From positions 1 to 55,319 of the IMG/VR virus record IMGVR_UViG_3300036835_000046: DNA of 55,319 nucleotides. One strand, 5' to 3'. This DNA is from a virus. Lineage: Duplodnaviria > Caudoviricetes. The notes below the pieces were generated by a model. It saw only the letters and a list, made by a program, of their open reading frames with translations. It had not been told where the DNA came from and searched no databases. A program made the position numbers and the translations under genes. Shown in pieces: positions 591 through 41,491 of the stretch (its first letter is position 1; each line of letters opens with the position of its first letter).

Positions 591-785
591 GGCTCATGCT
601 ACCACGTCGGGTCCGGCCCATCCGAATGTCACCTAACCTGTCAGTCTCGCTCAGACTTGAGTTGGGACTTCTGGGCGGACCAGGAACCATCCCGTGCCTG
701 GAATGCCGATTTACCGTAAGTCGGCAAGAGGGTGGGCACCATTTGTGTGAAGTCGATTGACAGTAAGTCAGAGTGACAGGGACAG

Positions 786-849
786 TGACGTTTTGAATCC
801 CTGAATGCGTTCAAAATCGTCAACGCAATTGATACTCACTGAGTGTCAA
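786..849. promoter_or_regulatory. two imperfect inverted repeats, operator-like
   Basis: TGACGTTTTGAA...TTCAAAATCGTCA (786-822) and TTGATACTCA-C-TGAGTGTCAA (829-849) in an AT-richer divergent intergenic region. Confidence 0.45.
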
Positions 850-924
850 CCTAAGCGACAGCTAAATCGCCTCTGAGGCCCCTAGCGGCCCGTCTGCGGG
901 CATCGGGGGGTCAACCCTACTGTC

Positions 925-1145
925 AGTATCGGCGCGCATTCTTTGGGGTTTTCCCTGCAATTGGGCACTTTTTGCCTCGCGCGCCCACGTGGCTGCGCAT
1001 GCAGGGGTGCGCACGCAGGCGCACATGCGCGTACGGGAGCGCGCACATGCGGGAGCGCACACTCGCGCATCCTGACCAGGATCTTCCGCTGCGCTGCGCT
1101 GCGCACTTGCGCGCAGATCTGTGCGCGCGGATCTGCGCACACACG
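925..1145. repeat. GCGCA/TGCGC-rich alternating purine-pyrimidine block
   Basis: About 15 GCGCA/TGCGC units and three RGATCT in ~220 bp; overlapping ORFs are low-complexity artefacts. Confidence 0.75.
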
Positions 1146-1202
1146 AAGACGAACCTGTAGGTAAGGTTGATATTTGGCTCTACAGAGCCAAAACAGCAAT
1201 CC

Positions 1203-1224
1203 GATTGTCATCCCCCTGACAATC
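1203..1224. promoter_or_regulatory. perfect inverted repeat GATTGTCA-N6-TGACAATC
   Basis: 8-bp arms with a 6-bp spacer, upstream of the first early gene. Confidence 0.55.
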
Positions 1225-1340
1225 CGCACTTCCGGTTCTCAAGTCCGGCCCTACAGTCACCGATGAAGGGATTGCAGGGCAGCGGGACCGACTGAATCGG
1301 CCACTCAGCGCCCGACACAGGGCAGATAGGACTCACCGAA

Positions 1341-1775
1341 ATGAACACTCCCACTCTCACGCAGATCATGGACGCGGCCAAGGCTGTCAAGTCCACTTCC
1401 AACACCGACAAGTCGGTGGGCGAGATCGTGGCCATGCTCATCATGGACATCGACAAGTCGCTCACTCCCGCACAGGTCGCTCCCGCTCCCGTCCGCTCCC
1501 GCGAGGCGCGCACTGCCCGCAAGTCGGCCGACTGGAAGTCCACTGTGACTGCCAGCACTGACCACTGCTATGTGCGCCTCGTCGCTTGCGAACTGGCGCT
1601 CATGGACGCCTACGCTGACAGCCCGATTGACGGTTACTCCACCCTGGATTGCGTGCCCACGCACGGCGCGGTGAGCGACGCCTACAAGGCGCTCATGCCC
1701 TACGTGGCCGCTGTCACTGTCAACTTTGGGCGCGGATCGGCGCACTACGCGGAGGCTGCCGCGCTGGTCGCGTAG
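1341..1775 (+). CDS. hypothetical early protein
   Basis: 144-aa ORF, high GC3, AGGA RBS. Confidence 0.8.
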   Translation: MNTPTLTQIMDAAKAVKSTSNTDKSVGEIVAMLIMDIDKSLTPAQVAPAPVRSREARTARKSADWKSTVTASTDHCYVRLVACELALMDAYADSPIDGYSTLDCVPTHGAVSDAYKALMPYVAAVTVNFGRGSAHYAEAAALVA

Positions 1776-2745
1776 CCCCACCATTGACAAGTCGGGCAGG
1801 CATGCCCGAATCGCGCCCACCATTGGCGCGACCGTCCCTGAAGCCGGGACGCTGACGAACCCTAACGGGTGACTTGTCAGACATAACCTCGCGGTGAGCG
1901 CGCTAGGCGCGCTAATGAGCACCACCATTGCTCCCGCGTACTCCAGTCGCATAGGAGTGACACCAGGGATGACATGTCGGCAAGCGACCGCTGTTGTCAT
2001 GGCGTGGGATGACTTCCCATTGTCACTACTAACGCACTCCGCGCCACCATAGGCGTGCGTACATATCCGTTCACATGTCACTATGGACATGGTTCACATA
2101 ACGACTTGATCTCGCGGTCAATCCTAGTAGCCGCTGTCAACTGAGTCTGCACTTTGATGGTAAGTCATGTTGACAGTCTGCGAGCTACACACCGACTGCA
2201 AGCGCTCCTTCTACAGTGAACCCCCCGGAATGACGAGTCAGGCCCCGCAGCTACAACAGCGGATACCATGGGGCAATGGCACTGACAATGTGACTCCCCG
2301 CAGGGAGAAATAAGCTCGGATGACAGTTGTTACTGACTGTCAACCATAGTGTCCGATTAGGTGGAAGTGGCGTGTCCCGCTTGCACAAGTAGCTCGGGTG
2401 GCATTGTGGTGCTAGTAATTCGATGCCCGCTGACAGTGCGATTGACAGTGTACGGCGCGATGGCCATGGTCTGAGTGAGGTAGGGAAGACGGTGCAAGTA
2501 GGCCGGAACCTTAGCCTGAGCGGGGAGCTTGAATGCGGCAATCATGCTGACATGTTCAACTGCCAATACCAAGGTGTTGCAGAGTCAGAGCCGCTAGCGG
2601 GAGTCAGTGGACATGCCTCATAGTCCTGCCCGCGAACTGGTACTAGAGAGGCGTCTGGGCAGCTTGGAGTCCCTGCCAGCACCCCCTAACTGGGTGACTG
2701 GAGTGTGCGGAACGGCGCGGTTCGATCCCGTCCCTGCCCGATTCA
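1776..2745 (+). ncRNA. candidate large structured non-coding RNA (~1 kb)
   Basis: No codon-biased ORF; near-continuous helices (1785-1793/1871-1879 enclosing hairpins; 2134-2141/2169-2176; 2291-2298/2599-2606; 1792-1800/2733-2741); G-U pairs favour the + strand. Confidence 0.65.
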
Positions 2746-2801
2746 ACCGAATAGATAGTCAACTCAACTCACACAACACCAGTCCTAAGGAGGACACCAC
2801 C

Positions 2802-2975
2802 ATGGGCTACATCGCCAACCCGACCGACGAGCGTATCCTCGTCGCCAGTAGCACCGACAACTACACTGTCATCAACCGTGACTACGCTCAGGAGCGCGCT
2901 GAGCGTGCCCAGGAGCGCCTGGAGCGTGACATGCGGGCTGTCGGATTCGGTGCCCGCCGCTCCTACTGCGGCTAG
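2802..2975 (+). CDS. hypothetical protein (MGYIANP...)
   Basis: AAGGAGG RBS, strong codon bias. Confidence 0.8.
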   Translation: MGYIANPTDERILVASSTDNYTVINRDYAQERAERAQERLERDMRAVGFGARRSYCG

Positions 2976-3330
2976 CTCCACAGTGTGTGTCATGTAAGTG
3001 TACATGTCACACTCCACAATTGCTGTAAGTTCACTTGTCACCCGGCCGCTCTCCGCATGGTAAAGCGGGGAGTCAGGCTGGGTGATAGGAGAATTGGCGT
3101 CGATTCAAGCGTATTGTCATATGTCAATGGGCTTGAATGGGCATGCCAATGTCCAATGATCCCGGGATGCAAGTGGGTTGACAGTCTGAGGCTACTCAGA
3201 TCGTCTGCTCACGCACTCCTGGAGCCACACAGACTCCCTCCTGACTCTCTAGGAAGTGAGTCCTCTACTGGAGAGGCATTCCGGCCGATCCGGTGCCCTA
3301 GTGCAACCCCACAACGATCCTGAATGGAGG
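2976..3330 (+). ncRNA. candidate structured RNA or leader
   Basis: ORF-poor; hairpins ATTCAAGC...GCTTGAAT and TCTGAG-GCTA-CTCAGA among others. Confidence 0.35.
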
Positions 3331-3336
3331 GTCACA

Positions 3337-3591
3337 ATGAGCAACTCCTACAACACTGACAGTCCGGCGCTGGCAAGCGCTGCCGCACTGGCGCGCATGA
3401 TCGCCGCTGCCGCTGCCTTCCAGTCGGATGGCACTTTGCCGCCGCAGCGTCGGTCCTCCGACCACACGGTTGTCATCAATTCCGGCCACGTCGCCTTCAA
3501 TGGCGCGACCGAGCCGCCCGCTGGCCACCGCGACTGGGATCACATCCGCGCCCAGGAGCCGCAGCCGCTCGGTCCCTGGAGCCACTGCTAG
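3337..3591 (+). CDS. hypothetical protein
   Basis: GGAGG RBS, codon bias. Confidence 0.7.
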   Translation: MSNSYNTDSPALASAAALARMIAAAAAFQSDGTLPPQRRSSDHTVVINSGHVAFNGATEPPAGHRDWDHIRAQEPQPLGPWSHC

Positions 3592-5718: not shown

Positions 5719-6948
5719 ATGGTTGCCAAGGATGTGTCGGTCGGCCTGACTTACAACGTCATGGTCAGCGACAAGATCGTGCCGGTGCGCCTGACTGGCG
5801 AGTGCCCCTACGGCGGCTGGTACGGCATCAACACTGTCACTGACCAGAAGGTCAGGATCAAGACGGCGGGACGCCTGCGCGAGCAGGTCATCGTCAACTC
5901 GGACCACCGTGGCCAGACGGACTCTGGCAAGATCACCCCGATTCAGGAGAGCAACACCGTGAGCACCACCCAGACCCCCACCGTGACCGCCGCCGACCGC
6001 CGCGCCAAGCGTGCCAAGTCGGCCAAGGTGACGGCCCCCGAGCCGGACGGCCCCAAGATGGCCGACGTGCCCGCCAAGCCGCCCGTCGCGGTCAAGCCGA
6101 CCGCCGTCAAGTCGGCTGCCAAGAAGACGACGGCCAGCAAGCCGACCGTAGCCAAGAAGACGGCTGCCAAGTCGGTGGCCAGCAAGCCCGCGAGCAAGCC
6201 CGCTGCCGCCAAGTCGGCGGCCAAGCCCACCCCTGCCAAGCCCGCTGCCAAGAAGGCGGCTCCGGCCAAGCCGACCGCCAAGGTGACGGTCAACAAGGAC
6301 ACCCCCACCGACAACTCGGTGGACATCGACAAGCTGGCGGCGATGGTCGTCGCCAAGCTCATGCAGGACAACAACGACAACAACAAGGAGAGCAACACCG
6401 TGCCCACCCGCAAGATCAAGGGCGGCAACGCCGCCGCCAAGAAGTCCACGACCACCCGCTCGACGGCCAAGCCCGCCGCCAAGCGCTCGACCGCCAAGGT
6501 CGCTGCCAAGCGCTCGACCGCCAAGGTCGCTGCCAAGCCGACGACGGCCGCGCCGTCCGTCACCGTCAACGACGACGGCTCCGTGACCGTCATCCTGACG
6601 GCGCTCAAGGAGACGCCGAACAAGTTCCAGTTCGGCCAGCCCAAGGGCACCGCCAACCCGCTGGTCACCGGCTTCTACGTGACCAAGGAGGGCATCGACG
6701 CGCTGGTCGCGGCGACCGACGAGGACGCCGACGCGGTGCTGGAGTTGACCTACGAGCCGCACGGCGGCAACCAGCCCAAGCACTCGACCCGCTGGGACGA
6801 GCAGCACGGCAACGACTCCCCGGCGTCCACGCTCTACCTGATGAACGCGGCGCTGTCCTCGCTCGGTGCCAAGGAGGGCGACAAGATCAACGCCGACGTG
6901 GCCATCGAGGGCGACAGCAGCATCGCGCTGACCCTCTGGGTCGCCTAG
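5719..6948 (+). CDS. histone H1-like Lys/Ala-rich DNA-binding protein with internal starts at 5959 and 6400
   Basis: PAAKK/TAAKK repeats; duplicated AGGAGAGCAACACCGTG initiation sites in frame. Confidence 0.8.
   Translation: MVAKDVSVGLTYNVMVSDKIVPVRLTGECPYGGWYGINTVTDQKVRIKTAGRLREQVIVNSDHRGQTDSGKITPIQESNTVSTTQTPTVTAADRRAKRAKSAKVTAPEPDGPKMADVPAKPPVAVKPTAVKSAAKKTTASKPTVAKKTAAKSVASKPASKPAAAKSAAKPTPAKPAAKKAAPAKPTAKVTVNKDTPTDNSVDIDKLAAMVVAKLMQDNNDNNKESNTVPTRKIKGGNAAAKKSTTTRSTAKPAAKRSTAKVAAKRSTAKVAAKPTTAAPSVTVNDDGSVTVILTALKETPNKFQFGQPKGTANPLVTGFYVTKEGIDALVAATDEDADAVLELTYEPHGGNQPKHSTRWDEQHGNDSPASTLYLMNAALSSLGAKEGDKINADVAIEGDSSIALTLWVA
6478..6538 (+). repeat. 27-bp coding tandem repeat (AKRSTAKVA x2)
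   Basis: GCCAAGCGCTCGACCGCCAAGGTCGCT twice plus a partial copy. Confidence 0.85.
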
Positions 6949-11103: not shown

Positions 11104-12519
11104 ATGTCACATCACATCCCTTGGCTTCAGGCCGAGATCAAGCGTGCCCGCGACCCGCGTGGCCGTGGCCGCAAGCTCCAGAACAACACCTACCTGCGTC
11201 AGTTGGAGGACGGCTCGCTGGTCGTCCGCCTCCATGCCACCGACATCGTGACTGTCACTCCGGATGGCGACTTCATCCTCCGCAGCGGCGGCTATCACAC
11301 GAACACGACCAGGGACCGGATCACCTCCTACTCCCCGATGACGTGGCGCACGCTGCTGTCGGAGCACGGTGACTGGTACGTGCGGCTGACGCCGGACCCC
11401 AGCGATCCGCGTCCGGAGGTCGTCCACCGCTCCGTCTGCAAGCCCTATACGGCCGACAACCCCGGCGACGAGCCGGTCAAGTCGAGCGCGGGCTGCATAG
11501 CGGGCGACCTGCTGGCCGTCCCGCACGTCAACGAGAAGCTGCACATCTTCCGCAAGGACATGCAGGCGGGCGATGTCATCGTCTATGACAATGCGGTGGA
11601 GAACGGCCGCGAGCCGGACAAGTACGACTTCATCGACATCGAGCGGTCGTGGGTCAGCCACGTCTACTACGGCGAGTCGGCCCAGTGCTACCAGGACGAC
11701 GGCTGGGGCATGCTGGATGACAACAGCAACCCTCACAGAAGCTCGTTCGTCAACGACGACGGTGAGACGGTCCAGTACGAGCAGTGCGCTCACTGTGCGG
11801 CGTTCGATCTGGTCCATGAGCAGTGGCGCTATGCCATGCACGGCGGTCGCTGGGAGCGGCGCTATGACCGCTGGCGCGGCTATGCCCTCTACGCGGCCAA
11901 CCTGAACCTGCATGGCAGCATGGAGGCGTGGCAGGCGGCGTACATCGAGGACTTCCGTGCCCGCCGTGCCTACCTGAAGGCCGAGCGTGAGTGGGACGAG
12001 CGCAATCGGGTGCCCTTCTATGAGGGCATCGTGGTTGACAGTGACGGTTACGCTCAGCGTGAGGGTGGCCCGTCGAAGGCCAAGCTCGACCGCCACAAGC
12101 GCGAGGTCGCCCGCATTCGTCGCGCCGTCAACAGGTTCATTGACGGTTACGTCAAGGAGCTTCGCAAGGGCACGATGCCGATGCCCAGCGGTGCCGACTG
12201 CTGGTATTGCTCGCTGCGTACGGAGAGCGGGCAGCCGATGGGTGACAATGCCCAGACGCTTCACAGTGACGGCACGGTGACGCGGGAGGTCAACACCGAC
12301 CACCTGTGGAGCCACATCGAGGAGGGCTACTACGTGCCGAGCCTCGCTGTCAACGCTCTGCGGGAGCGCGGTTACAAGGACGTTGGCATCTACTTCTGGC
12401 TCGACATGGACCAGGAGGCTGGCACGATGGGCAAGGCCAGCAGCGACTACAAGGGCTTGCGCCGCGACCTGCGCAAGTACATGCTCAAGCGGCTGCTGCC
12501 GACCGCACCGACCGCCTAA
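11104..12519 (+). CDS. large hypothetical phage protein
   Basis: AGGAGG RBS; N-terminal LHATDIV...SGGYHTNTTRDRI motif; C-terminal DCWYC. Confidence 0.8.
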   Translation: MSHHIPWLQAEIKRARDPRGRGRKLQNNTYLRQLEDGSLVVRLHATDIVTVTPDGDFILRSGGYHTNTTRDRITSYSPMTWRTLLSEHGDWYVRLTPDPSDPRPEVVHRSVCKPYTADNPGDEPVKSSAGCIAGDLLAVPHVNEKLHIFRKDMQAGDVIVYDNAVENGREPDKYDFIDIERSWVSHVYYGESAQCYQDDGWGMLDDNSNPHRSSFVNDDGETVQYEQCAHCAAFDLVHEQWRYAMHGGRWERRYDRWRGYALYAANLNLHGSMEAWQAAYIEDFRARRAYLKAEREWDERNRVPFYEGIVVDSDGYAQREGGPSKAKLDRHKREVARIRRAVNRFIDGYVKELRKGTMPMPSGADCWYCSLRTESGQPMGDNAQTLHSDGTVTREVNTDHLWSHIEEGYYVPSLAVNALRERGYKDVGIYFWLDMDQEAGTMGKASSDYKGLRRDLRKYMLKRLLPTAPTA

Positions 12520-15986: not shown

Positions 15987-17543
15987 ATGAAGTTCGTTCC
16001 GACAGGGGAACAGCTAAACGCCCGTCACAACGTGCTCGACGGCGAGCACACGGTCATGAGCGCCTACGCTGGCGCATCGAAGACCACGACTTGCATCTTC
16101 GTCAGCAAGTCGCTTGACACGGAGAAGGGCATGTACCTTGCCTTCAACCGTGACATCGCCACGGAGGCGAAGGGCAAGTTCCCCCGGCACGTCGAGTGCC
16201 GCACCACCCACTCGCTCGCCTTCCAGGCGGTCGGCAAGCACTACGTCAACGCCGGTCGCCGCATCCCCGGCCGCGACGTGCGCCGCCTGCGCATCGATGA
16301 GGTGTGCTACATCCTCGGCTTGCAGGATGGCTACAAGGGTGACAACGCCAAGTTCACCAAGCAAGGGCTGGCGTATCTCGTCAAGGAGACTGTCACTCGC
16401 TTCTGCTACTCGGCCGACACCGAGGTCGGCTGGCGTCACTTCCCCTATGTCAATGGCATGGAGAAGTGGAGCGAGACGGAGAAGCAGGAGGTGCGTTCCC
16501 TCGTCATCCACTTCGCTGGCATCTACTGGGCCAACACGATGCGCAAGAACGGCGACGTGGACTACGAGCACGACCACTACCTGAAGCAGTTCCAACTCTC
16601 GGAGCCGGTGATCGAGAAGGACTTCATCATGATCGATGAGGGGCAGGATACCAACCCTGCTGTCTTCGACATCTTCCGGCGACAGGGTGGGCACGCGCAA
16701 CTCATCATGGTCGGTGACTCCTACCAGAGCATCTACCAGTGGCGCGGAGCCATCGACGCCATGGCTGCCTTCGAGGAGGCCGTCAACCACGTTCACCTGA
16801 CCAAGAGCTTCCGCTTCGGTGAGGCGGTCGCCAACGAGGCGAACAAGTGGCTGAAGATGCTCGGCGCTGTCAAGCCACTTGTCGGCTTCGAGGAGATCGA
16901 GAGCGAGGTCTGCGAGCTTGACCTGCCGCGAGCGATCCTCTGCCGCACGAACGCTCAGGTGATCGCTGAGACGCTGGCAGCGCAGGAACATGACAAGAAG
17001 GTGTACGTGCAGGGCGGCACGTACGAGATCGAGCAGTTCGCCAAGGGTGCCCGCGATCTCATGCAGGGCCAGCCGTCCAACCATCCGGAGTTGATCGGCT
17101 TCAAGTCGTGGGACGATGTGGTCGCCTACGTCAACGCCGACAAGTCGGCCAAGGATCTCCGGACCTACGTCAAGGTCATTGATGACTACGGCGTGGAGAA
17201 GGTGCTGACGATCACCGAGCGGTGCGTGGACCGTGAGACGTACGCCGACGTGACGACCAGCACCGCGCACAAGTCCAAGGGTAAGGAGTGGGAGAGCGTG
17301 CGAATCGCCTCCGACTTCTCCGAGCCTGAGGATGACATGGAGACTGGCCAACCGGCCCGTCTGACCGAGAGTGAGATGCGACTTGCCTACGTGGCTGTCA
17401 CTCGCGCTCAGCGCCAGCTTGACTGCACGGCGCTGGAGTGGGTGGACCGCTGGGTGGCACGGTACGCCGCTGGCGAGCCGATCACCAAGTCGCATGACAA
17501 ACTGACCGAGCAGGAGGCCGCTCAGGAGGCGGCGACAGCATGA
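15987..17543 (+). CDS. UvrD/Rep-family SF1 helicase
   Basis: AYAGASKT (variant Walker A), LAFN, IDEGQD, VGDSYQSIYQWRGA, SFRFG, STAHKSKGKEW, YVAVTRA. Confidence 0.9.
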   Translation: MKFVPTGEQLNARHNVLDGEHTVMSAYAGASKTTTCIFVSKSLDTEKGMYLAFNRDIATEAKGKFPRHVECRTTHSLAFQAVGKHYVNAGRRIPGRDVRRLRIDEVCYILGLQDGYKGDNAKFTKQGLAYLVKETVTRFCYSADTEVGWRHFPYVNGMEKWSETEKQEVRSLVIHFAGIYWANTMRKNGDVDYEHDHYLKQFQLSEPVIEKDFIMIDEGQDTNPAVFDIFRRQGGHAQLIMVGDSYQSIYQWRGAIDAMAAFEEAVNHVHLTKSFRFGEAVANEANKWLKMLGAVKPLVGFEEIESEVCELDLPRAILCRTNAQVIAETLAAQEHDKKVYVQGGTYEIEQFAKGARDLMQGQPSNHPELIGFKSWDDVVAYVNADKSAKDLRTYVKVIDDYGVEKVLTITERCVDRETYADVTTSTAHKSKGKEWESVRIASDFSEPEDDMETGQPARLTESEMRLAYVAVTRAQRQLDCTALEWVDRWVARYAAGEPITKSHDKLTEQEAAQEAATA

Positions 17544-27324: not shown

Positions 27325-27529
27325 GTCCGTCAGACCCCCTACAGGCCCGCCGAAGGGCTAGTCCCGGCTTCAGAAACACCGCTCTTTGCGGGGCCTTTAG
27401 GGGGACTGGACGTTTGTTCGATGGCGCTCCTAAGCCGCGCCTAAATAGGGTGCCGCCGTCCGCTGGGGAGAACCCCGGAGGCTCTGGCCAGCGCGACGGT
27501 CCTGTAACGCGAGTGAAAGGACTTCACTC
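27325..27529 (+). promoter_or_regulatory. structured 5' leader
   Basis: Nested stems; GAGTGAA-AGGAC-TTCACTC hairpin abutting the ATG at 27530. Confidence 0.45.
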
Positions 27530-28966
27530 ATGAGGCATAAGCCTCTCGTCATGGCGGCTGTGACAGCCGTGATGACAATCGGATCGGCGGGGGTGGCCAA
27601 CGCGCTCCCCGGCGACCGCGCCGTGTCGGACCTCAGCCCCTACCGGCTGAACGATCACACGCTGGAGCCGGGTTGCTTCGTCAACTCGTACCGGCTGCCG
27701 CAGTCGATCCAGGACCACCTCGACCTGTCCCTGCTGGATGCCGGGACCATCGGGGAGGATCTGCACGTGTCGGTGGACACCGGGGCCGATGCGTCGGTCG
27801 ATCAGGTGCTCGTCGCTGACAACGTGGGCTACAAGGTCTACAACACGTTCGACACCGGCACGATCAACAACGACCCTGACATCGATCCGGGCCAGACCGG
27901 CACCGGCATGAACGGGTTCACGGCGCGCGGCACCACCAGCACCCGCGACACCATCGTCTGCGTCTCCGACCACGGCGATGCGGGCCAGAACGAGCCGTAC
28001 CAGCAGGAGGCCGACGGCATGGTGTCGGCCAAGAACCGGCCCATCCTGTCACCCAAGGTGACGGCGGTCGGCGTCTCGGCCATCACGAACCTGAAGACGT
28101 TCAAGGTCGGGTTCGGGTACGACACCGAGCGGTGGTACAAGGTCCCGACGTACGACGGCCACTCGGCCTTCGCCAACGTGACCGACCCCAACGCCTTCCC
28201 GTCGCCGGTCTTCGGTGACAGCCGTCTGCCGCGTGTGGTGGACCTGTTCCCCCGTCAGGGTGGCAACGGGGTTTCCACCGACCCGGCCGACTTCACCTAT
28301 GACACCCGGCGTGTCAACGACTTCGACTCGTCGCGCGAGCCGTGGGCGTTCGGTGATCCGTTCGACGGTCAGACCGCGTTCTTCAAGCAGGACGGCGACG
28401 ACACCGCCTGGACCGACACGGCGACGACCAACAACGGGCTGTTCAACCTGCTGGCCACGCTGACCCAGGGCGACCTCCCGCTGTCCTGGAGCCTGCGTCC
28501 CTCGCTGGGCGCTCCGGACACCCTCCGGATCGGCACGTTCACACGTGACGACTACGACGCCTGGAACGCGGCGTGGCAGGCGTACTACAAGGGCGGCAAG
28601 CTGTGCGACGGCCCGGACGGCATGCGCGGTGTCAACGTGGGCGACCTCGGCTGCATCGTGCTCGTCCCCGGCACCAACTCGCCGGACCCGGACCAGAGCG
28701 TGACGGTCATCGTCAACCCACCTGTCACCCAGCCCGCGCCGACCCCGGCTGCCCCGGCCCCCGCTCCCATCGTGGTCAACCCGACCCCGGTGACGGTGCA
28801 GGCCCCGGCCGCTCCCGCGTCGGTCACCCCGTCGTCCGTGACCCACAAGGCCAAGGCGACGAAGACGCAGAAGAAGGCGTACGCCAAGTGCGTCAAGGCG
28901 GCTTCCAAGAAGCACGGCAGCAAGCACCGCAAGGCGCTCGCCAAGTGCCGCCGGATGCCGCACTAA
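27530..28966 (+). CDS. secreted/cell-surface protein with Pro-rich linker and Lys-rich two-Cys C-terminus
   Basis: Signal peptide (..GVANA), PAP-rich linker, KAYAKCVKAASKKHGSKHRKALAKCRR. Confidence 0.85.
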   Translation: MRHKPLVMAAVTAVMTIGSAGVANALPGDRAVSDLSPYRLNDHTLEPGCFVNSYRLPQSIQDHLDLSLLDAGTIGEDLHVSVDTGADASVDQVLVADNVGYKVYNTFDTGTINNDPDIDPGQTGTGMNGFTARGTTSTRDTIVCVSDHGDAGQNEPYQQEADGMVSAKNRPILSPKVTAVGVSAITNLKTFKVGFGYDTERWYKVPTYDGHSAFANVTDPNAFPSPVFGDSRLPRVVDLFPRQGGNGVSTDPADFTYDTRRVNDFDSSREPWAFGDPFDGQTAFFKQDGDDTAWTDTATTNNGLFNLLATLTQGDLPLSWSLRPSLGAPDTLRIGTFTRDDYDAWNAAWQAYYKGGKLCDGPDGMRGVNVGDLGCIVLVPGTNSPDPDQSVTVIVNPPVTQPAPTPAAPAPAPIVVNPTPVTVQAPAAPASVTPSSVTHKAKATKTQKKAYAKCVKAASKKHGSKHRKALAKCRRMPH

Positions 28967-38243: not shown

Positions 38244-38735
38244 TCACCCCACTACGCAGGCCAGAATCCTCTTTTGACCGCCAGGACTATTGACGGTGAT
38301 CTGCTGGAGCGAAGATCCGGCCGGACAGTTCATTGCTCCTGACGGACCCTGGGGGCCTTCTGGTCCTTGAGGACCACGCGGGCCGGTAGCTCCTTGTGGC
38401 CCACGCGCTCCAGTCTCTCCCTTGTTTCCATCAGCGCCCTTGTCACCCTTCGAGCCGGTGGCACCTGTCTCACCCTTGGGGCCTGTTGCTCCTGTCGCTC
38501 CAGCGGGTCCCTGCGGCCCCGGAGGGCCTTGCGTGAGCTTGACCGGCCCCAATTGCAGGGTGATGTTGCGTGGTCCCTTGCACGACCCCTCACGCACGTT
38601 GAGATCGCCCTTCGTCTCGATCCCGCCCCAGTTCTGCGCGCAGACATGGATGACACCAGGGTTGCCTTGCGCCCCAGCGATCCCTGCCCCGGCCAGCAGG
38701 GTCGATACCACCGCTATTGCTAGTACGTGTCTCAT
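38244..38735 (-). CDS. secreted collagen-like protein
   Basis: Signal peptide plus about 20 Gly-X-Y triplets. Confidence 0.85.
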
Positions 38736-41491
38736 GGGTGTGCGATCAGCCAGCCGCCCAACTCGGTCAGGTACTCGTCGGTGCCATCGGCGTCGAACAT
38801 GATGAACGCGGTTGACGTGTCGTTGTCGAAGTAGGCCGTCGCTCCCTCGGGGGCGTCGTCCGGCATCTCATGGACGTACACGATGGAGAAGTTGGCGCGG
38901 GCGATGGGGACGAAGCCGAGCACGCCGTAGGGGTGCTCCTTCCACATCTCCTTCCACGCCTCCTTGACGGTGAACAGGGTGTTGTCACGGCGCTTGCACT
39001 CCTCGTCGTGCTCGATCCCATCCGTCGCCCTGACGTACTTGATCCCGTTGGCCTCGGCACTGATGAGCGTGGCCGCGTTCACCGCATCGCGTGTCTCCGA
39101 CCTTGCCACTCGGTCGGCCTTGTGGCCCTCGAAGCCGCTGAAGTGCGCCCGCACCTGATCCGCGATCTCGTCAGCGGTCAGCCCATCCTGCATCTGCTTG
39201 ACGAGGAAGTCGCGTAGCTCGTTGCGGACCGTCTGGTGGGTGAGCTTGATGAGCCGTGCCGACTGGCGCGCCAGCCAGTCGTCAAGTTGCTTGTCGTCCC
39301 ACTCGGTGTCGATCCGGCTCCGGGACTTCTCCAAGTCCTGCGCTCGCTCCGCGATCCGCCGCAGCAGCGCCTCCGACTTCTCCCGTAGCTGCTGCATCTT
39401 CTCGGACTCGTCGCCCCAGGTGGCGAGCAGCGTGTTCGCCAGCTTCGTCGCTGCCTTCTTCGTCATGGCGATGATCTTGTCAGGCTTCTTGTCAGCGAAC
39501 ATCATGATGATCGACTCGACGTTGACCGAGCGGAACTCGTCGTCGTCCAGGTTGACATCTGCTGGTTCGAGCTTGGCCGTGGCCACGTGACCGGCGAACT
39601 CCGGGTAGAGGTTGCGGTAGTAGCCGAGCCACAGCCGCCGCAGTTGCAGCATCAGCGAGCGGATCGTCCTGTCGCTGTAGTGGTAGGTGCTGGGCAGGCC
39701 CGCCACGAAGTCATCGATCTCGCTCAGTTCGATCAACTCGCGTCCGGCCACGTACATCATCGGCGTCACGTGCGGCTCGTCGCTGAAGCCCATGGCCGAA
39801 TTGTTGTTGCCATTGGCAGTGACACCCGGCGCTGAGCCACCGGCCTGAAAGCCGGGGTTGACAGCCGGGTTGCGAATGATGCCGATGCCGTTGGCAGTCG
39901 GCGTCACGCCGGGAGGCTGCGCGTTGGCCTGCTGCTGGATCATGAGCGCCTGGTCGGCTGCCAACTGGGCTGGCGTCTTCAGTGGCGTTCCAGAGCGCCG
40001 GAAGATCTCGACCAGATCGACCATGGAGAAGGCGTTCGGGTTGCTCTGGCCGATCAACTGGAGCACCTGCTTGTAGAACTCGATGTCCTCCTTGCGGAAG
40101 CCGTGCGACACCTTCTTCGCCCTGCCACCATTGTTGATGAAATCGGGGAAGTTGAGCGTGAGCAACTGCGGCAGCCACAGCCGGTTGATCTCGTCATCGA
40201 TCTCGGCCATGTCGAGTTCGAGCGATTCGGTCAGCATCTCGGCCATCTGCTCCGCGATGTTGCCACCTGTGTTGCCACCGCTCTGGTTGCCGCCGATGAA
40301 GGCCAGGTCCGGCACCCAGATCGAGCGCAGCTTCATGATGTTGATGTAGTTGAACCTGTCATCGAACACCTTGAGCGATTCCCAGGGCGTCTCCATGAAC
40401 TTGAAGTCCCACTCGCGCTGGGTGGCCGACGAGTCGAGGCCCGCTGTCGCCATAGTTGACGGGACGGCGGCGACAGCGTTCGCCCTGATCCGCTCCGCTG
40501 CCTCCAGCGCGATCTCCCAGTTGGGCCGCGTCTCGCCCGTCTCGGCATCGACAAGCGTGCTGCCCTCCGGGTGGTAGGCAAGCACTGGCGGGATCGCCAG
40601 GCGCTCATACGCCCGGTTGGACATCATGAACAGGAAGCGGTAGGCCCACCAGTAGTCCCGCGCGAAGCCGATGCGCGGGTAGCCGTACATCGAGCCGTGC
40701 TCCTCGTTCTTCTGGTTGACAGCCCAGTACGAGTGCCAGATGTCAATCTGCCTGACGCTCTGGTTGCCCTTCTGGCTGCTGGCCTTGAAGCCCGACGCCT
40801 TGTTGCGCTGGGCGGGCGGCACCTCGTAGGCCATGCCGGTGAACTCGCCCGTCTTGTCATCGAACTGCGGCGTCGTCTGCTCGGGCCGCAGCGCCACCGG
40901 GTTCTTGTAGATGATCGGGTTGACGTTGCCCTCGTTCCAGGCGGGCTGCTGCGCCTTGGCAGGGTCGGTGGCAGTCGGGTCACTCCAGGTGCCACCGGGG
41001 TTCTGGAAGATGAAGCGCTTGACGATCCCCTGGAAGCCGAAGTCCTTGCATAGCTCGCGCTGGAAGATCAGCGTGGCGTAGATGCCCCGCAGGCAAGCGT
41101 CAAGAAAGGCGCTGATCTGCGGATTGGGACCGTTGTTGTCATACGCCTCGATGTGCCACTCCGCGCGCACCAGCGGCACCTTCATGTAGTGCAGTCCGAA
41201 CGCGACCATCGGGTCCTTGCGGATCTGGCGAAGCTGCGCCAGCGTCACGCGCTCCGCATCGAACGGCGGACCGAGCGTGTCTCGCTGGGCTTGCCATGTG
41301 GTCTGGTCCGGCGTCTGCTCCGCGAGCGTCGGAGCCTGCTCGGACCCCAGCACCGACTTGACTTGCTTGTCAAGCTCCTTGGGATCGATGACGGTCGTCT
41401 CGATCTTCGCCTTGGCCTGCTGAGCCGCGCCCATCTTCACCGCTCTGGCGGTTGACACCGGGGCGCGAGCACCGCGTGCGACAGTGGGCAT
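38732..41491 (-). CDS. portal protein fused to a MuF-like minor head domain
   Basis: Follows TerL; [13 protein letters not shown] portal-like motifs; C-terminal [14 protein letters not shown]...DEEC...EHPYG MuF-like pattern. Confidence 0.8.

What the first reader, a model, noticed from the sequence alone, without database searches (positions are those of the whole stretch)
1776..2745. Candidate ~1 kb giant ornate phage ncRNA at the head of the early arm
Seen: in an otherwise tightly packed arm, about 1 kb has no codon-biased ORF yet folds almost continuously. A multi-way junction closed by TGACAAG(TC)/(GA)CTTGTCA (1785-1879) holds four hairpins, one with a cUAACg loop. There is a 3-way junction at 1890-1938, stems at 2074-2091, 2134-2141/2169-2176 and 2321-2342, a long-range pair 2291-2298/2599-2606, and a 9-bp end-to-end pairing TCGGGCAGG (1792-1800)/CCTGCCCGA (2733-2741). 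G-U pairs point to the + strand. Established: phages encode large ornate RNAs such as GOLLD and ROOL, but I cannot match this one to a known family by eye. Inference: a possibly new large RNA class expressed early in infection. This is my best candidate for an undescribed system here.
Basis: partly seen in the sequence, partly recalled or inferred. Interest (0 to 1): 0.85.

Follow-up and report, generated by a model that had tools for sequence, protein, structure and literature searches.

The report
Large structured RNA in soil phage
A roughly 965-base stretch near the start of one gene arm of an uncultured soil phage codes for no protein but looks like a large, intricately folded RNA ending in a tRNA-like piece, and it matches no known RNA family.

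Summary
Window 1776-2745 has no conserved reading frame. It is the best-conserved long stretch between this phage and its one full-length relative, G001: 86% DNA identity over 940 nt, against 46-60% protein identity for neighbouring genes. Its substitutions preserve base pairs. A consensus fold has 26 pairs changed on both sides against 3.5±1.9 in column shuffles. A fold from the window alone has 17 against 0-3 in slid controls. A coding control shows no excess. G·U pairs and folding energy favour the + strand. Rfam 15 gives no hit at gathering score.

- The 9-bp end-to-end pairing is not conserved.
- The 2074-2091 hairpin breaks in G001.
- The folding z-score alone (-4.0) barely exceeds coding controls (-2.3, -2.7).

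New here: the 3' end (2656-2740) is a degenerate tRNA-like module. Twenty-two of its bases equal the 3' end of tRNA-Phe in Actinomycetota and some Planctomycetes. Compensatory changes keep its acceptor helix in G001.

Function and expression are untested, and only two lineages could be compared. My best reading is a new family of large phage RNA, the GOLLD/ROOL kind but not a member.

The parts
1341..1775 (+). Conserved small gene (144 aa, unknown function) whose stop codon abuts the RNA.
   Evidence: GC3 is 0.83. It has 5 database relatives plus the G001 copy, all sharing a ~75-aa C-terminal domain and the same C-terminus ...AEAA(A/E)LVA. No Pfam or PHROGs family. The model has pLDDT 67, and 0 of 151 PDB matches reach E<=0.001.
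1776..2655 (+). Conserved multi-domain core of the RNA, about 880 nt.
   Evidence: 86% identity to G001 over 940 nt, the best long match in the 55 kb. 26 pairs changed on both sides against 3.5+-1.9 in 40 column shuffles; alifold energy -313 against -228+-7.6. No reading frame is kept.
1785..1880 (+). 5' multi-hairpin junction: hairpins 1792-1809, 1812-1828, 1833-1851 and 1859-1870.
   Evidence: 1792-1809 and 1833-1851 each carry 2 compensatory pairs. The outer helix 1785-1793/1871-1879 has matching 1-nt deletions in G001. In G001 only, this part scores 23.8 bits against Hammerhead_II, below the gathering score of 37.
1890..1938 (+). Three-way junction.
   Evidence: Helices 1890-1894/1934-1938, 1897-1913 and 1917-1933 are kept in both sequences, with 1 compensatory pair.
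1945..2057 (+). Long branched hairpin domain (1945-2038) plus hairpin 2040-2057.
   Evidence: Helices 10-14 carry 3 compensatory pairs and 1 one-sided change.
2067..2293 (+). Domain closed by 2071-2076/2288-2293, holding the long hairpin 2135-2175.
   Evidence: The closing helices carry 3 compensatory pairs (2075/2289, 2076/2288, 2078/2233). Hairpin 2135-2175 carries 3 more.
2294..2527 (+). Central domain closed by CUCCCCGC/GCGGGGAG. Its inner part 2314-2476 is the most conserved piece.
   Evidence: 2314-2476 is 95% identical to G001. Hairpin 2490-2505 has 2 compensatory pairs. The covariance model R1 of 2314-2476 finds only the window and G001.
2535..2653 (+). Hairpin domain 2535-2594 and hairpin 2614-2653.
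   Evidence: Helix 2547-2564/2573-2588 has 4 compensatory pairs. Helix 2614-2619/2648-2653 has 1.
2656..2740 (+). Degenerate tRNA-like 3' module: acceptor-like helix 2656-2662/2734-2740 and T-loop hairpin 2717-2731 (loop UUCGAUC).
   Evidence: - The acceptor helix is kept in G001. I read 3 both-sided changes in the alignment; RNAalifold scores 2.
- ARAGORN calls a tRNA (Leu, taa; 2653-2739) only at an 85% threshold, and calls nothing in G001.
- No Rfam tRNA hit at E<=10.
2718..2739 (+). 22 nt identical to the 3' end (T arm plus acceptor strand) of tRNA-Phe(GAA) genes.
   Evidence: The 21-mer 2719-2739 matches 36 loci in genome contigs exactly. In L077, L046 and L045 it lies at the 3' end of tRNA-Phe(GAA).

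Best explanation
Window 1776-2740, + strand, specifies a large structured non-coding RNA of a family not yet described.

Anatomy: an ~880-nt core of about 40 helices in several closed domains (1776-2655), a short variable linker, and a degenerate tRNA-like module derived from tRNA-Phe (2656-2740).

Shown:
- It is not coding.
- It is under stronger sequence constraint than any gene compared between the two phages.
- The constraint acts on base pairing of the + strand.

Inferred:
- It is transcribed with the conserved upstream gene from the divergent intergenic region at 591-1340, as part of the rightward (presumed early) transcript.
- The tRNA-like module serves as a handle for host tRNA-processing enzymes. 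RNase P cutting at about 2655/2656 would give the core a defined 3' end, as happens for MALAT1/mascRNA.
- The released core acts in trans as a folded RNA, alone or with the upstream protein. This is the kind of role supposed for the phage RNAs GOLLD and ROOL, whose functions are also unknown.
For: - Conservation. 86% identity over 940 nt with G001, the best long match in the window; the next is 80% and structural or replication genes are 66-75%. Neighbouring proteins are 46-60% identical.
- Not coding. Substitutions fall evenly over the three phases, and 13 of 13 indels break frame.
- Covariation, consensus fold. 28 of 266 pairs changed on both sides against 0-1 in six slid controls. On columns 1-890, 26 against 3.5+-1.9, maximum 7, in 40 column shuffles.
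- Covariation, fold predicted from the window alone. 17 of 306 pairs against 0-3 in slid controls.
- Coding control. 6 pairs against 9.95+-1.9, so no excess.
- Strand. + strand z is -3.96 and -4.19, against -0.08 and -1.21 for the opposite strand. Alifold energy is -313 against -270, and compensatory pairs are 26 against 14. 61 of 580 pair cells are G.U.
- tRNA-like module. 22 nt equal tRNA-Phe. The acceptor helix is kept by compensatory changes, and the T-loop hairpin is kept in an otherwise diverged stretch.
- Gene linkage. The upstream gene is conserved, while the downstream ORF 2803-2975 has no relative in G001-G003.
Against: - Only two lineages could be compared, so every compensatory change is a single event. 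No R-scape-type statistic is possible.
- The window-only fold also has 46 of 306 pairs broken in G001, mostly long-range ones. The global architecture is therefore unsettled.
- The folding z-score is only modestly beyond the coding controls.
- There is no evidence of transcription, promoter, terminator or processing.
- The tRNA-like module fails default ARAGORN and Rfam tRNA. The G001 copy has G at the position of the universal C56 of tRNAs (a rule I recall, not from a call).
- Four more distant relatives, three of them at least 93% complete, lack the RNA by BLAST, nhmmer or covariance model. It is not essential to the phage group.
Confidence: 0.55

Rival explanations
1. It is a cis-acting part of the early polycistronic mRNA. 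It would be a structured spacer that controls read-through, stability or processing of the transcript, or translation of neighbouring genes, and it has no role as a free RNA.
For: It lies on the same strand and inside a run of co-directional genes. No promoter-like or terminator-like site of its own was found. It is tied to a conserved upstream gene.
Against: At about 900 nt with about 40 helices, it is far larger than the cis-acting leaders and antitermination RNAs I recall. The downstream gene is not conserved between the two phages. No riboswitch or leader family matched at E<=10.
Confidence: 0.17
2. It is a DNA-level element. One form is a replication origin, possibly with a structured primer transcript as in ColE1 RNA II. 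The other is an attachment site (attP) whose core is the tRNA-Phe 3' end.
For: - W 2718-2739 equals the 3' end of tRNA-Phe, the usual make-up of an attP core.
- Bacterial loci such as L061, L054 and L060 carry lone 3' halves of tRNA-Phe, like att remnants.
- The stretch sits next to a divergent intergenic region.
- TGACA/TGTCA words are dense here: 15.5 per kb against 5.3-6.0 in genes.
Against: - No tyrosine or serine recombinase was found in the window's record or in the complete G001.
- The G001 copy of the tRNA part no longer equals a tRNA yet keeps its helix by compensatory changes.
- W has G where tRNA-Phe has the discriminator A.
- TGACA words are lost in G001 while their pairing is kept, for example 2135-2141/2169-2175.
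- The strand asymmetry and G.U pairs are not expected of duplex DNA sites.
Confidence: 0.1
3. It is a self-cleaving or self-splicing RNA: a hammerhead-containing element or an ORF-less intron or mobile RNA element.
For: - In G001 the 5' junction scores 23.8 bits against Hammerhead_II (E 0.005 in a 161-nt search). GAAA, GUC and CUGACGA appear in the right order around two hairpins.
- The segment is far more alike between the two phages than its flanks, as a mobile piece would be.
Against: - The hit is below the gathering score of 37, and the window has no hit.
- The match has no canonical stem II. By my own reading, the window has U-A where hammerheads have A15.1-U16.1; that rule is recalled, not from a call.
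- No group I or II intron model matched at E<=10.
- The upstream ORF ends at a conserved stop, and nothing downstream continues it.
Confidence: 0.05
4. It is a recently exchanged mosaic segment with no function of its own. The high identity reflects recent transfer, and the pairing pattern is incidental.
For: Phage genomes are mosaic. The identity drops sharply at both borders, about 1725 and 2652.
Against: About 12% divergence has accumulated, and the changes in paired columns keep the pairs. That is 26 compensatory pairs against 3.5 expected. A coding control of similar divergence shows none of this.
Confidence: 0.03

Closest known systems
GOLLD RNA
   Same: It is encoded by phages or prophages. 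Many members exceed 800 nt. One strongly conserved part is joined to a less conserved part, and tRNAs sit beside it or in its linker. Function is unknown. These facts come from passages of PMC12286853.
   Different: No match to any Rfam 15 model at gathering score, or at E<=10 over 600-3400. In GOLLD the 3' region is the conserved one; here the 5' ~880 nt are conserved and the 3' module varies. There is no tRNA island: 0 tRNAs in the window and 1 doubtful call in G001. Oligomer formation was not tested.
ROOL RNA
   Same: It is a large, very complex phage or prophage RNA, often near tRNAs, with no known protein partner or function.
   Different: No Rfam match. This RNA is about 965 nt; ROOL is about 580 nt by my recall, not from a call. 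This one comes from soil phages of about 62% G+C.
MALAT1-mascRNA type 3'-end formation by a tRNA-like structure
   Same: A long structured RNA is followed directly by a tRNA-like fold that could be cut by RNase P. The titles and abstracts of PMC8457004 and PMC9777231, seen only in the listing, describe tRNA-like elements at the MALAT1 3' end.
   Different: That is a eukaryotic nuclear system. Cleavage here is pure inference.
Bacterial tRNA-Phe(GAA) and attP cores made of tRNA 3' ends
   Same: 22 nt are identical to the T arm plus acceptor 3' strand, and the likeness runs back to the anticodon-stem 3' strand at 2707-2712.
   Different: It is not a tRNA by ARAGORN defaults or Rfam. The discriminator differs. 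There is no integrase in the complete relative.

Membership tests
GOLLD / ROOL / OLE / HEARO and all other Rfam 15 families | Score at or above the family's gathering score against its covariance model. | tested here: not met
   0 matches in the window and 0 in all 112,874 bases of G001. At E<=10 only trivial short hits appear. states that GOLLD, ROOL and OLE have Rfam profiles. That HEARO does is my recall.
Large ornate phage RNA (the kind, not a family) | Several hundred nt, non-coding, many helices supported by covariation, encoded in a phage. | tested here: met
   The phage origin rests on the portal, DnaE-type polymerase and helicase genes and on the direct terminal repeats of G001. Covariation comes from only two lineages.
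Large ornate phage RNA (the kind) | Neighbourhood of tRNA genes. | tested here: not met
   0 tRNAs in the window. G001 has 1 ARAGORN call that Rfam does not confirm. The RNA does carry its own tRNA-like module.
Large ornate phage RNA (the kind) | Forms homo-oligomeric RNA-only assemblies. | not testable with these tools
   This needs native gels or cryo-EM.
tRNA | Cloverleaf recognised by ARAGORN at default settings or by the Rfam tRNA model. | tested here: not met
   ARAGORN calls it only at an 85% threshold, only in the window, and as Leu(taa).
tRNA | T arm and acceptor 3' strand of a real tRNA. | tested here: met
   22 nt are identical to tRNA-Phe(GAA) of L077, L046 and L045. This holds for the window only; G001 has diverged.
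Hammerhead ribozyme, type II | Gathering score of 37 bits, the conserved core, and three stems. | tested here: not met
   G001 scores 23.8 bits, with a non-standard pair flagged in the short stem II of the match. The window has no hit at E<=10 in 161 nt.
attP site at a tRNA gene | Core identical to the tRNA 3' end. | tested here: met
   for the window only.
attP site at a tRNA gene | An integrase encoded by the same element. | tested here: not met
   PF00589 and PF00239 find nothing in G000 or in the complete G001. The controls ring in 14 and 13 of 14 genomes.
Group I / group II intron | Match to the intron models, and an exon frame that continues across the element. | tested here: not met
   No hit at E<=10. 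The upstream ORF ends at a conserved stop in six of six relatives. The downstream ORF is not conserved.

The most novel reading that the evidence does not exclude
This is a new class of giant phage RNA, unrelated to GOLLD and ROOL, with a built-in tRNA-Phe mimic. After the host's tRNA-processing enzymes cut it out of the first transcript of infection, the ~880-nt core assembles, alone or with the small conserved upstream protein, into a machine that acts on the host's translation or tRNA-directed defence apparatus.
Probability: 0.2. Interest if true: 0.9.

Novelty: new variant of a known kind. Interest (0 to 1): 0.72.

Why it matters
Large structured RNAs with no known function are rare. The few phage examples, GOLLD and ROOL, form RNA-only cages whose purpose is still open. 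A further, unrelated example would help in three ways:
- It comes from a high-G+C soil phage.
- It sits next to a conserved protein gene.
- It carries its own tRNA-derived module.

That would give a second angle on what such RNAs do, and on why they keep company with tRNAs. It also offers a compact object for structure work: the central domain is 95% conserved. If the RNase P handle idea holds, it would be a bacterial-virus parallel to MALAT1/mascRNA 3'-end formation.

Tried and rejected
- **Rfam at E<=10.** Window 600-3400, 1760-1920 and 2630-2770, and G001 L025 17700-19900 and 19100-19260, gave only trivial hits apart from the sub-threshold Hammerhead_II in G001.
- **ARAGORN at default.** Nothing.
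- **The 'phages' collection by blastn.** No match.
- **Exact-pattern scans with five conserved blocks.**
  - Viral contigs gave G001 plus one chance hit, L020.
  - Metagenome contigs gave 0, then one chance hit, L037.
  - Genome contigs gave 0.
- **Protein-anchored searches for relatives.**
  - Three single-protein queries found nothing.
  - The portal query gave 9 loci.
  - Alignment A5 gave 4 loci, among them the new records G004 and G005.
  - None of G002-G005 holds the RNA by BLAST, nhmmer or model R1.
- **Sequencing runs.** No RNA holder was listed. Seven soil DNA runs hold all or part of the stretch. Laid contigs showed only a G001-like form (X4, X6) and a near-identical form (X3). Most of the X3 differences were not listed, so no third lineage was gained.
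- **Full profile against the 36 bacterial loci.** Only the ~35-nt tRNA part matches.
- **Upstream protein.** No Pfam or PHROGs family, and no fold match at E<=0.001.
- **Promoter and terminator consensus scan.** 0 and 0.
- **Failed or faulty steps.**
  - A z-score script timed out.
  - One ORF, typed as 3338-3591, was given in the wrong frame, so its blank there means nothing.
- **Literature.** Two full-text searches listed nothing that describes this RNA. A third failed on a term. This is weak evidence that it is not in print.

Full report
**Setting**

The window is a 55,319-base IMG/VR virus record, linear and about 49% complete. It has 62.8% G+C. It carries a Mu-type portal fused to a Mu F-like domain, a DnaE-type polymerase, a UvrD-type helicase, a dCTP deaminase and a RecA-like protein. 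Most other proteins match no Pfam or PHROGs family. Its closest readable relative is G001, a complete 112,874-base record with direct terminal repeats. G001 is syntenic with the window on the opposite strand.

From a divergent intergenic region (591-1340), genes run rightward on the + strand. The first is a 144-aa gene at 1341-1775. The ORF-free stretch under study follows it, then small genes from 2803 on.

No frame is conserved across 1776-2802. Over the 880 well-aligned columns against G001:
- The 106 substitutions fall 36/35/35 on the three phases.
- All 13 indel events have lengths that are not multiples of three.

Folding energy alone is not persuasive:

| Sequence | z-score (20 shuffles) |
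|---|---|
| Window, + strand | -3.96 |
| G001, element strand | -4.19 |
| Coding control 11200-12184 | -2.30 |
| Coding control 16200-17184 | -2.73 |
| Window, opposite strand | -0.08 |
| G001, opposite strand | -1.21 |

**Conservation**

BLAST of 1200-3400 against G001 gives one strong match. Window 1725-2652 aligns with G001 99286-98357 at 86% identity.

In a whole-window comparison this is the best long match. The next is 80% over about 1.5 kb at 27473-28965. Portal, polymerase and helicase genes are 66-75%. Proteins encoded around the element are 46-60% identical to their G001 counterparts. The inner part, 2314-2476, is 95% identical.

**Covariation**

Consensus fold:
- RNAalifold on the two-sequence alignment A3 gives 266 pairs in 41 helices.
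- 28 pairs are changed on both sides and 12 on one side, all keeping a standard pair.
- The six slid controls give 0, 0, 0, 0, 0 and 1.

Because alifold rewards such pairs, I ran three further checks:
- **Column shuffles.** Forty shuffles of columns 1-890 give 3.5±1.9 such pairs (maximum 7), against 26 observed. Energy is -228±7.6 against -313.
- **Window-only fold.** The minimum-energy fold of the window alone, tested on G001, has 17 pairs changed on both sides, 16 kept by a one-sided change, and 46 broken. The slid controls give 0-3. The broken pairs are mostly long-range ones, so the global layout is not settled.
- **Coding control.** The best-conserved coding stretch, treated the same way, gives 6 against 9.95±1.9.

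Strand:
- The opposite strand of the element gives 14 compensatory pairs and -270 kcal/mol, weaker than the + strand.
- In the full alignment A6, 61 of 580 pair cells are G·U.

TGACA/TGTCA words are dense here, which could suggest DNA sites. In G001, however, they mutate while their pairing is kept. CUGUCAAC/GUUGACAG becomes CUAUCAGC/(A)CUGAUAG.

Kept:
- The three-way junction 1890-1938.
- The stem 2134-2141/2169-2176.
- The hairpin 2321-2342.
- The UAAC-loop hairpin.

Plausible:
- The outer helix 1785-1793/1871-1879 loses one base on each arm in G001 and stays perfect.

Not kept:
- The hairpin 2074-2091 has 3 of 6 pairs broken. Those bases instead take part in long-range helices with three compensatory changes.
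- The 9-bp end-to-end pairing is not conserved.

**The 3' end is tRNA-derived**

Beyond 2652 the two phages diverge, and G001 has a 33-nt insertion. A hairpin with a T-loop-like loop persists: UUCGAUC in the window and UUGGAUU in G001. So does a helix that encloses the region:
- Window: 2656-2662/2734-2740.
- G001: UGCCCG/CGGGCA at the aligned columns.
- I read three pairs changed on both sides there. RNAalifold scores two of them.

The 21-mer 2719-2739 matches 36 loci of the species-representative genome collection exactly. By my count of the titles, these are 26 Actinomycetota, 6 Planctomycetes, 1 Rokubacteria and 3 unnamed.

ARAGORN was run on 8 of the 36 loci:
- In L077, L046 and L045 the match is the T arm plus acceptor 3' strand of tRNA-Phe(GAA).
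- In the other five (L069, L050, L061, L054, L060) no tRNA is called.
- In L061, L054 and L060 I saw that only the 3' half of the tRNA is present, like att remnants.

The window is identical to tRNA-Phe over 22 nt (2718-2739), and similar back to 2707.

It is not a working tRNA by the usual tests:
- ARAGORN calls it only at an 85% threshold, as Leu(taa), and calls nothing in G001.
- Rfam gives nothing at E<=10.
- The discriminator base differs.

An attP reading lacks its enzyme. Neither recombinase family is found in the window's record or in the complete G001, with positive controls. G001 does not share this.

**Distribution**

| Search | Result |
|---|---|
| Rfam 15 at gathering score | none in the window or in all of G001 |
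| G002-G005 (three at least 93% complete) by BLAST, nhmmer or model R1 of 2314-2476 | none |
| Exact-block scans of viral contigs, metagenome contigs and genome contigs | only G001 and two chance hits |
| Sequencing runs | seven soil DNA runs hold all or part; none on record as RNA |
| Laid contigs | G001-like and near-identical forms only |

The upstream protein has four further relatives at 54-68% identity, on short contigs that I could not read. All six proteins end at the same ...LVA terminus.

**How it most likely works**

Shown: a non-coding + strand element under selection for base pairing, with a tRNA-derived 3' module, tied to a conserved upstream gene and not to a conserved downstream one.

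Inferred:
- It is co-transcribed in the rightward arm.
- Host RNase P releases the core at the tRNA-like module. The conserved block ends at about 2652-2655, just where the acceptor-like helix begins.
- The core then acts in trans as a folded RNA or RNP.

What it acts on is unknown.

Rivals:
- A cis-acting spacer of the early mRNA.
- A DNA-level origin or att site.
- A ribozyme or intron. Only G001 gives a sub-threshold Hammerhead_II hit, 23.8 bits against 37.
- A functionless mosaic patch.

**Comparison and novelty**

The nearest known things are GOLLD and ROOL. Both are large phage RNAs of unknown function, often near tRNAs; GOLLD has tRNAs in its linker (passages of PMC12286853). This RNA is not a member of either, since no model match was found. 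It differs in three ways:
- Its 5' part is the conserved one.
- Its tRNA piece is a degenerate built-in module.
- No tRNA island lies nearby.

I rate it a new family within a known kind. The support is good but comes from two lineages only, and expression and function are open.

Noticed in passing
window 591-1340: This is a 750-nt divergent intergenic region. It contains a block rich in GCGCAC/GTGCGC-type words (about 960-1140). It is 72% identical to G001 over 864-1119. It presumably holds the promoters of both arms, but the sigma-70 consensus scan found none.
   Followed up: partly
window 2976-3336: This is a second ORF-free stretch of about 360 nt with the densest TGACA/TGTCA content, 16.6 per kb. 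It shares the word GTTGACAGTCTG, followed by a similar ...GCTAC stretch, with 2169-2190 inside the RNA. BLAST found no counterpart in G001.
   Followed up: partly
whole window: TGACA occurs 321 times against 127 expected from dinucleotide shuffles. Against a third-order expectation it is not among the eight most over-represented 5-mers listed, so much of the excess may be codon usage. The local excess in the non-coding stretches is real.
   Followed up: partly
L025 19145-19208 (-), that is G001 99145-99208; window counterpart about 1803-1866: G001 gives a sub-threshold Hammerhead_II match (23.8 bits; gathering score 37), with GAAA, GUC and CUGACGA in order. The window has no hit. It is worth a cleavage assay.
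   Followed up: yes
L060 1-260; L050 (three sites); L061; L054: Bacterial loci carry lone 3' halves of tRNA-Phe without a full tRNA. In a planctomycete contig they form three tandem copies about 101-103 nt apart. In the printed sequence each appears to be followed by a hairpin and a T run. They look like serial att remnants of integrated elements.
   Followed up: partly
window 5719-6948 (+): This 409-aa protein has a long Lys/Ala/Pro-rich repetitive middle (AAKKxAAK-type repeats). The region has very high A-over-T skew, up to 0.57, and 95% GC3. It has no Pfam or PHROGs family.
   Followed up: no
window 38732-41491 (-): The portal protein (919 aa) carries both a Mu-type portal domain and a Mu F-like domain in one chain. 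It served as the anchor that found the relatives.
   Followed up: partly
proteins P0002-P0005: Four relatives of the upstream gene (54-68% identity) sit on short contigs of 915-4701 bp. These may hold further copies of the RNA.
   Followed up: no
L024 12834-12917 (+), in G001: ARAGORN calls a single 84-nt tRNA-Ala(ggc). Rfam does not confirm it at gathering score.
   Followed up: no
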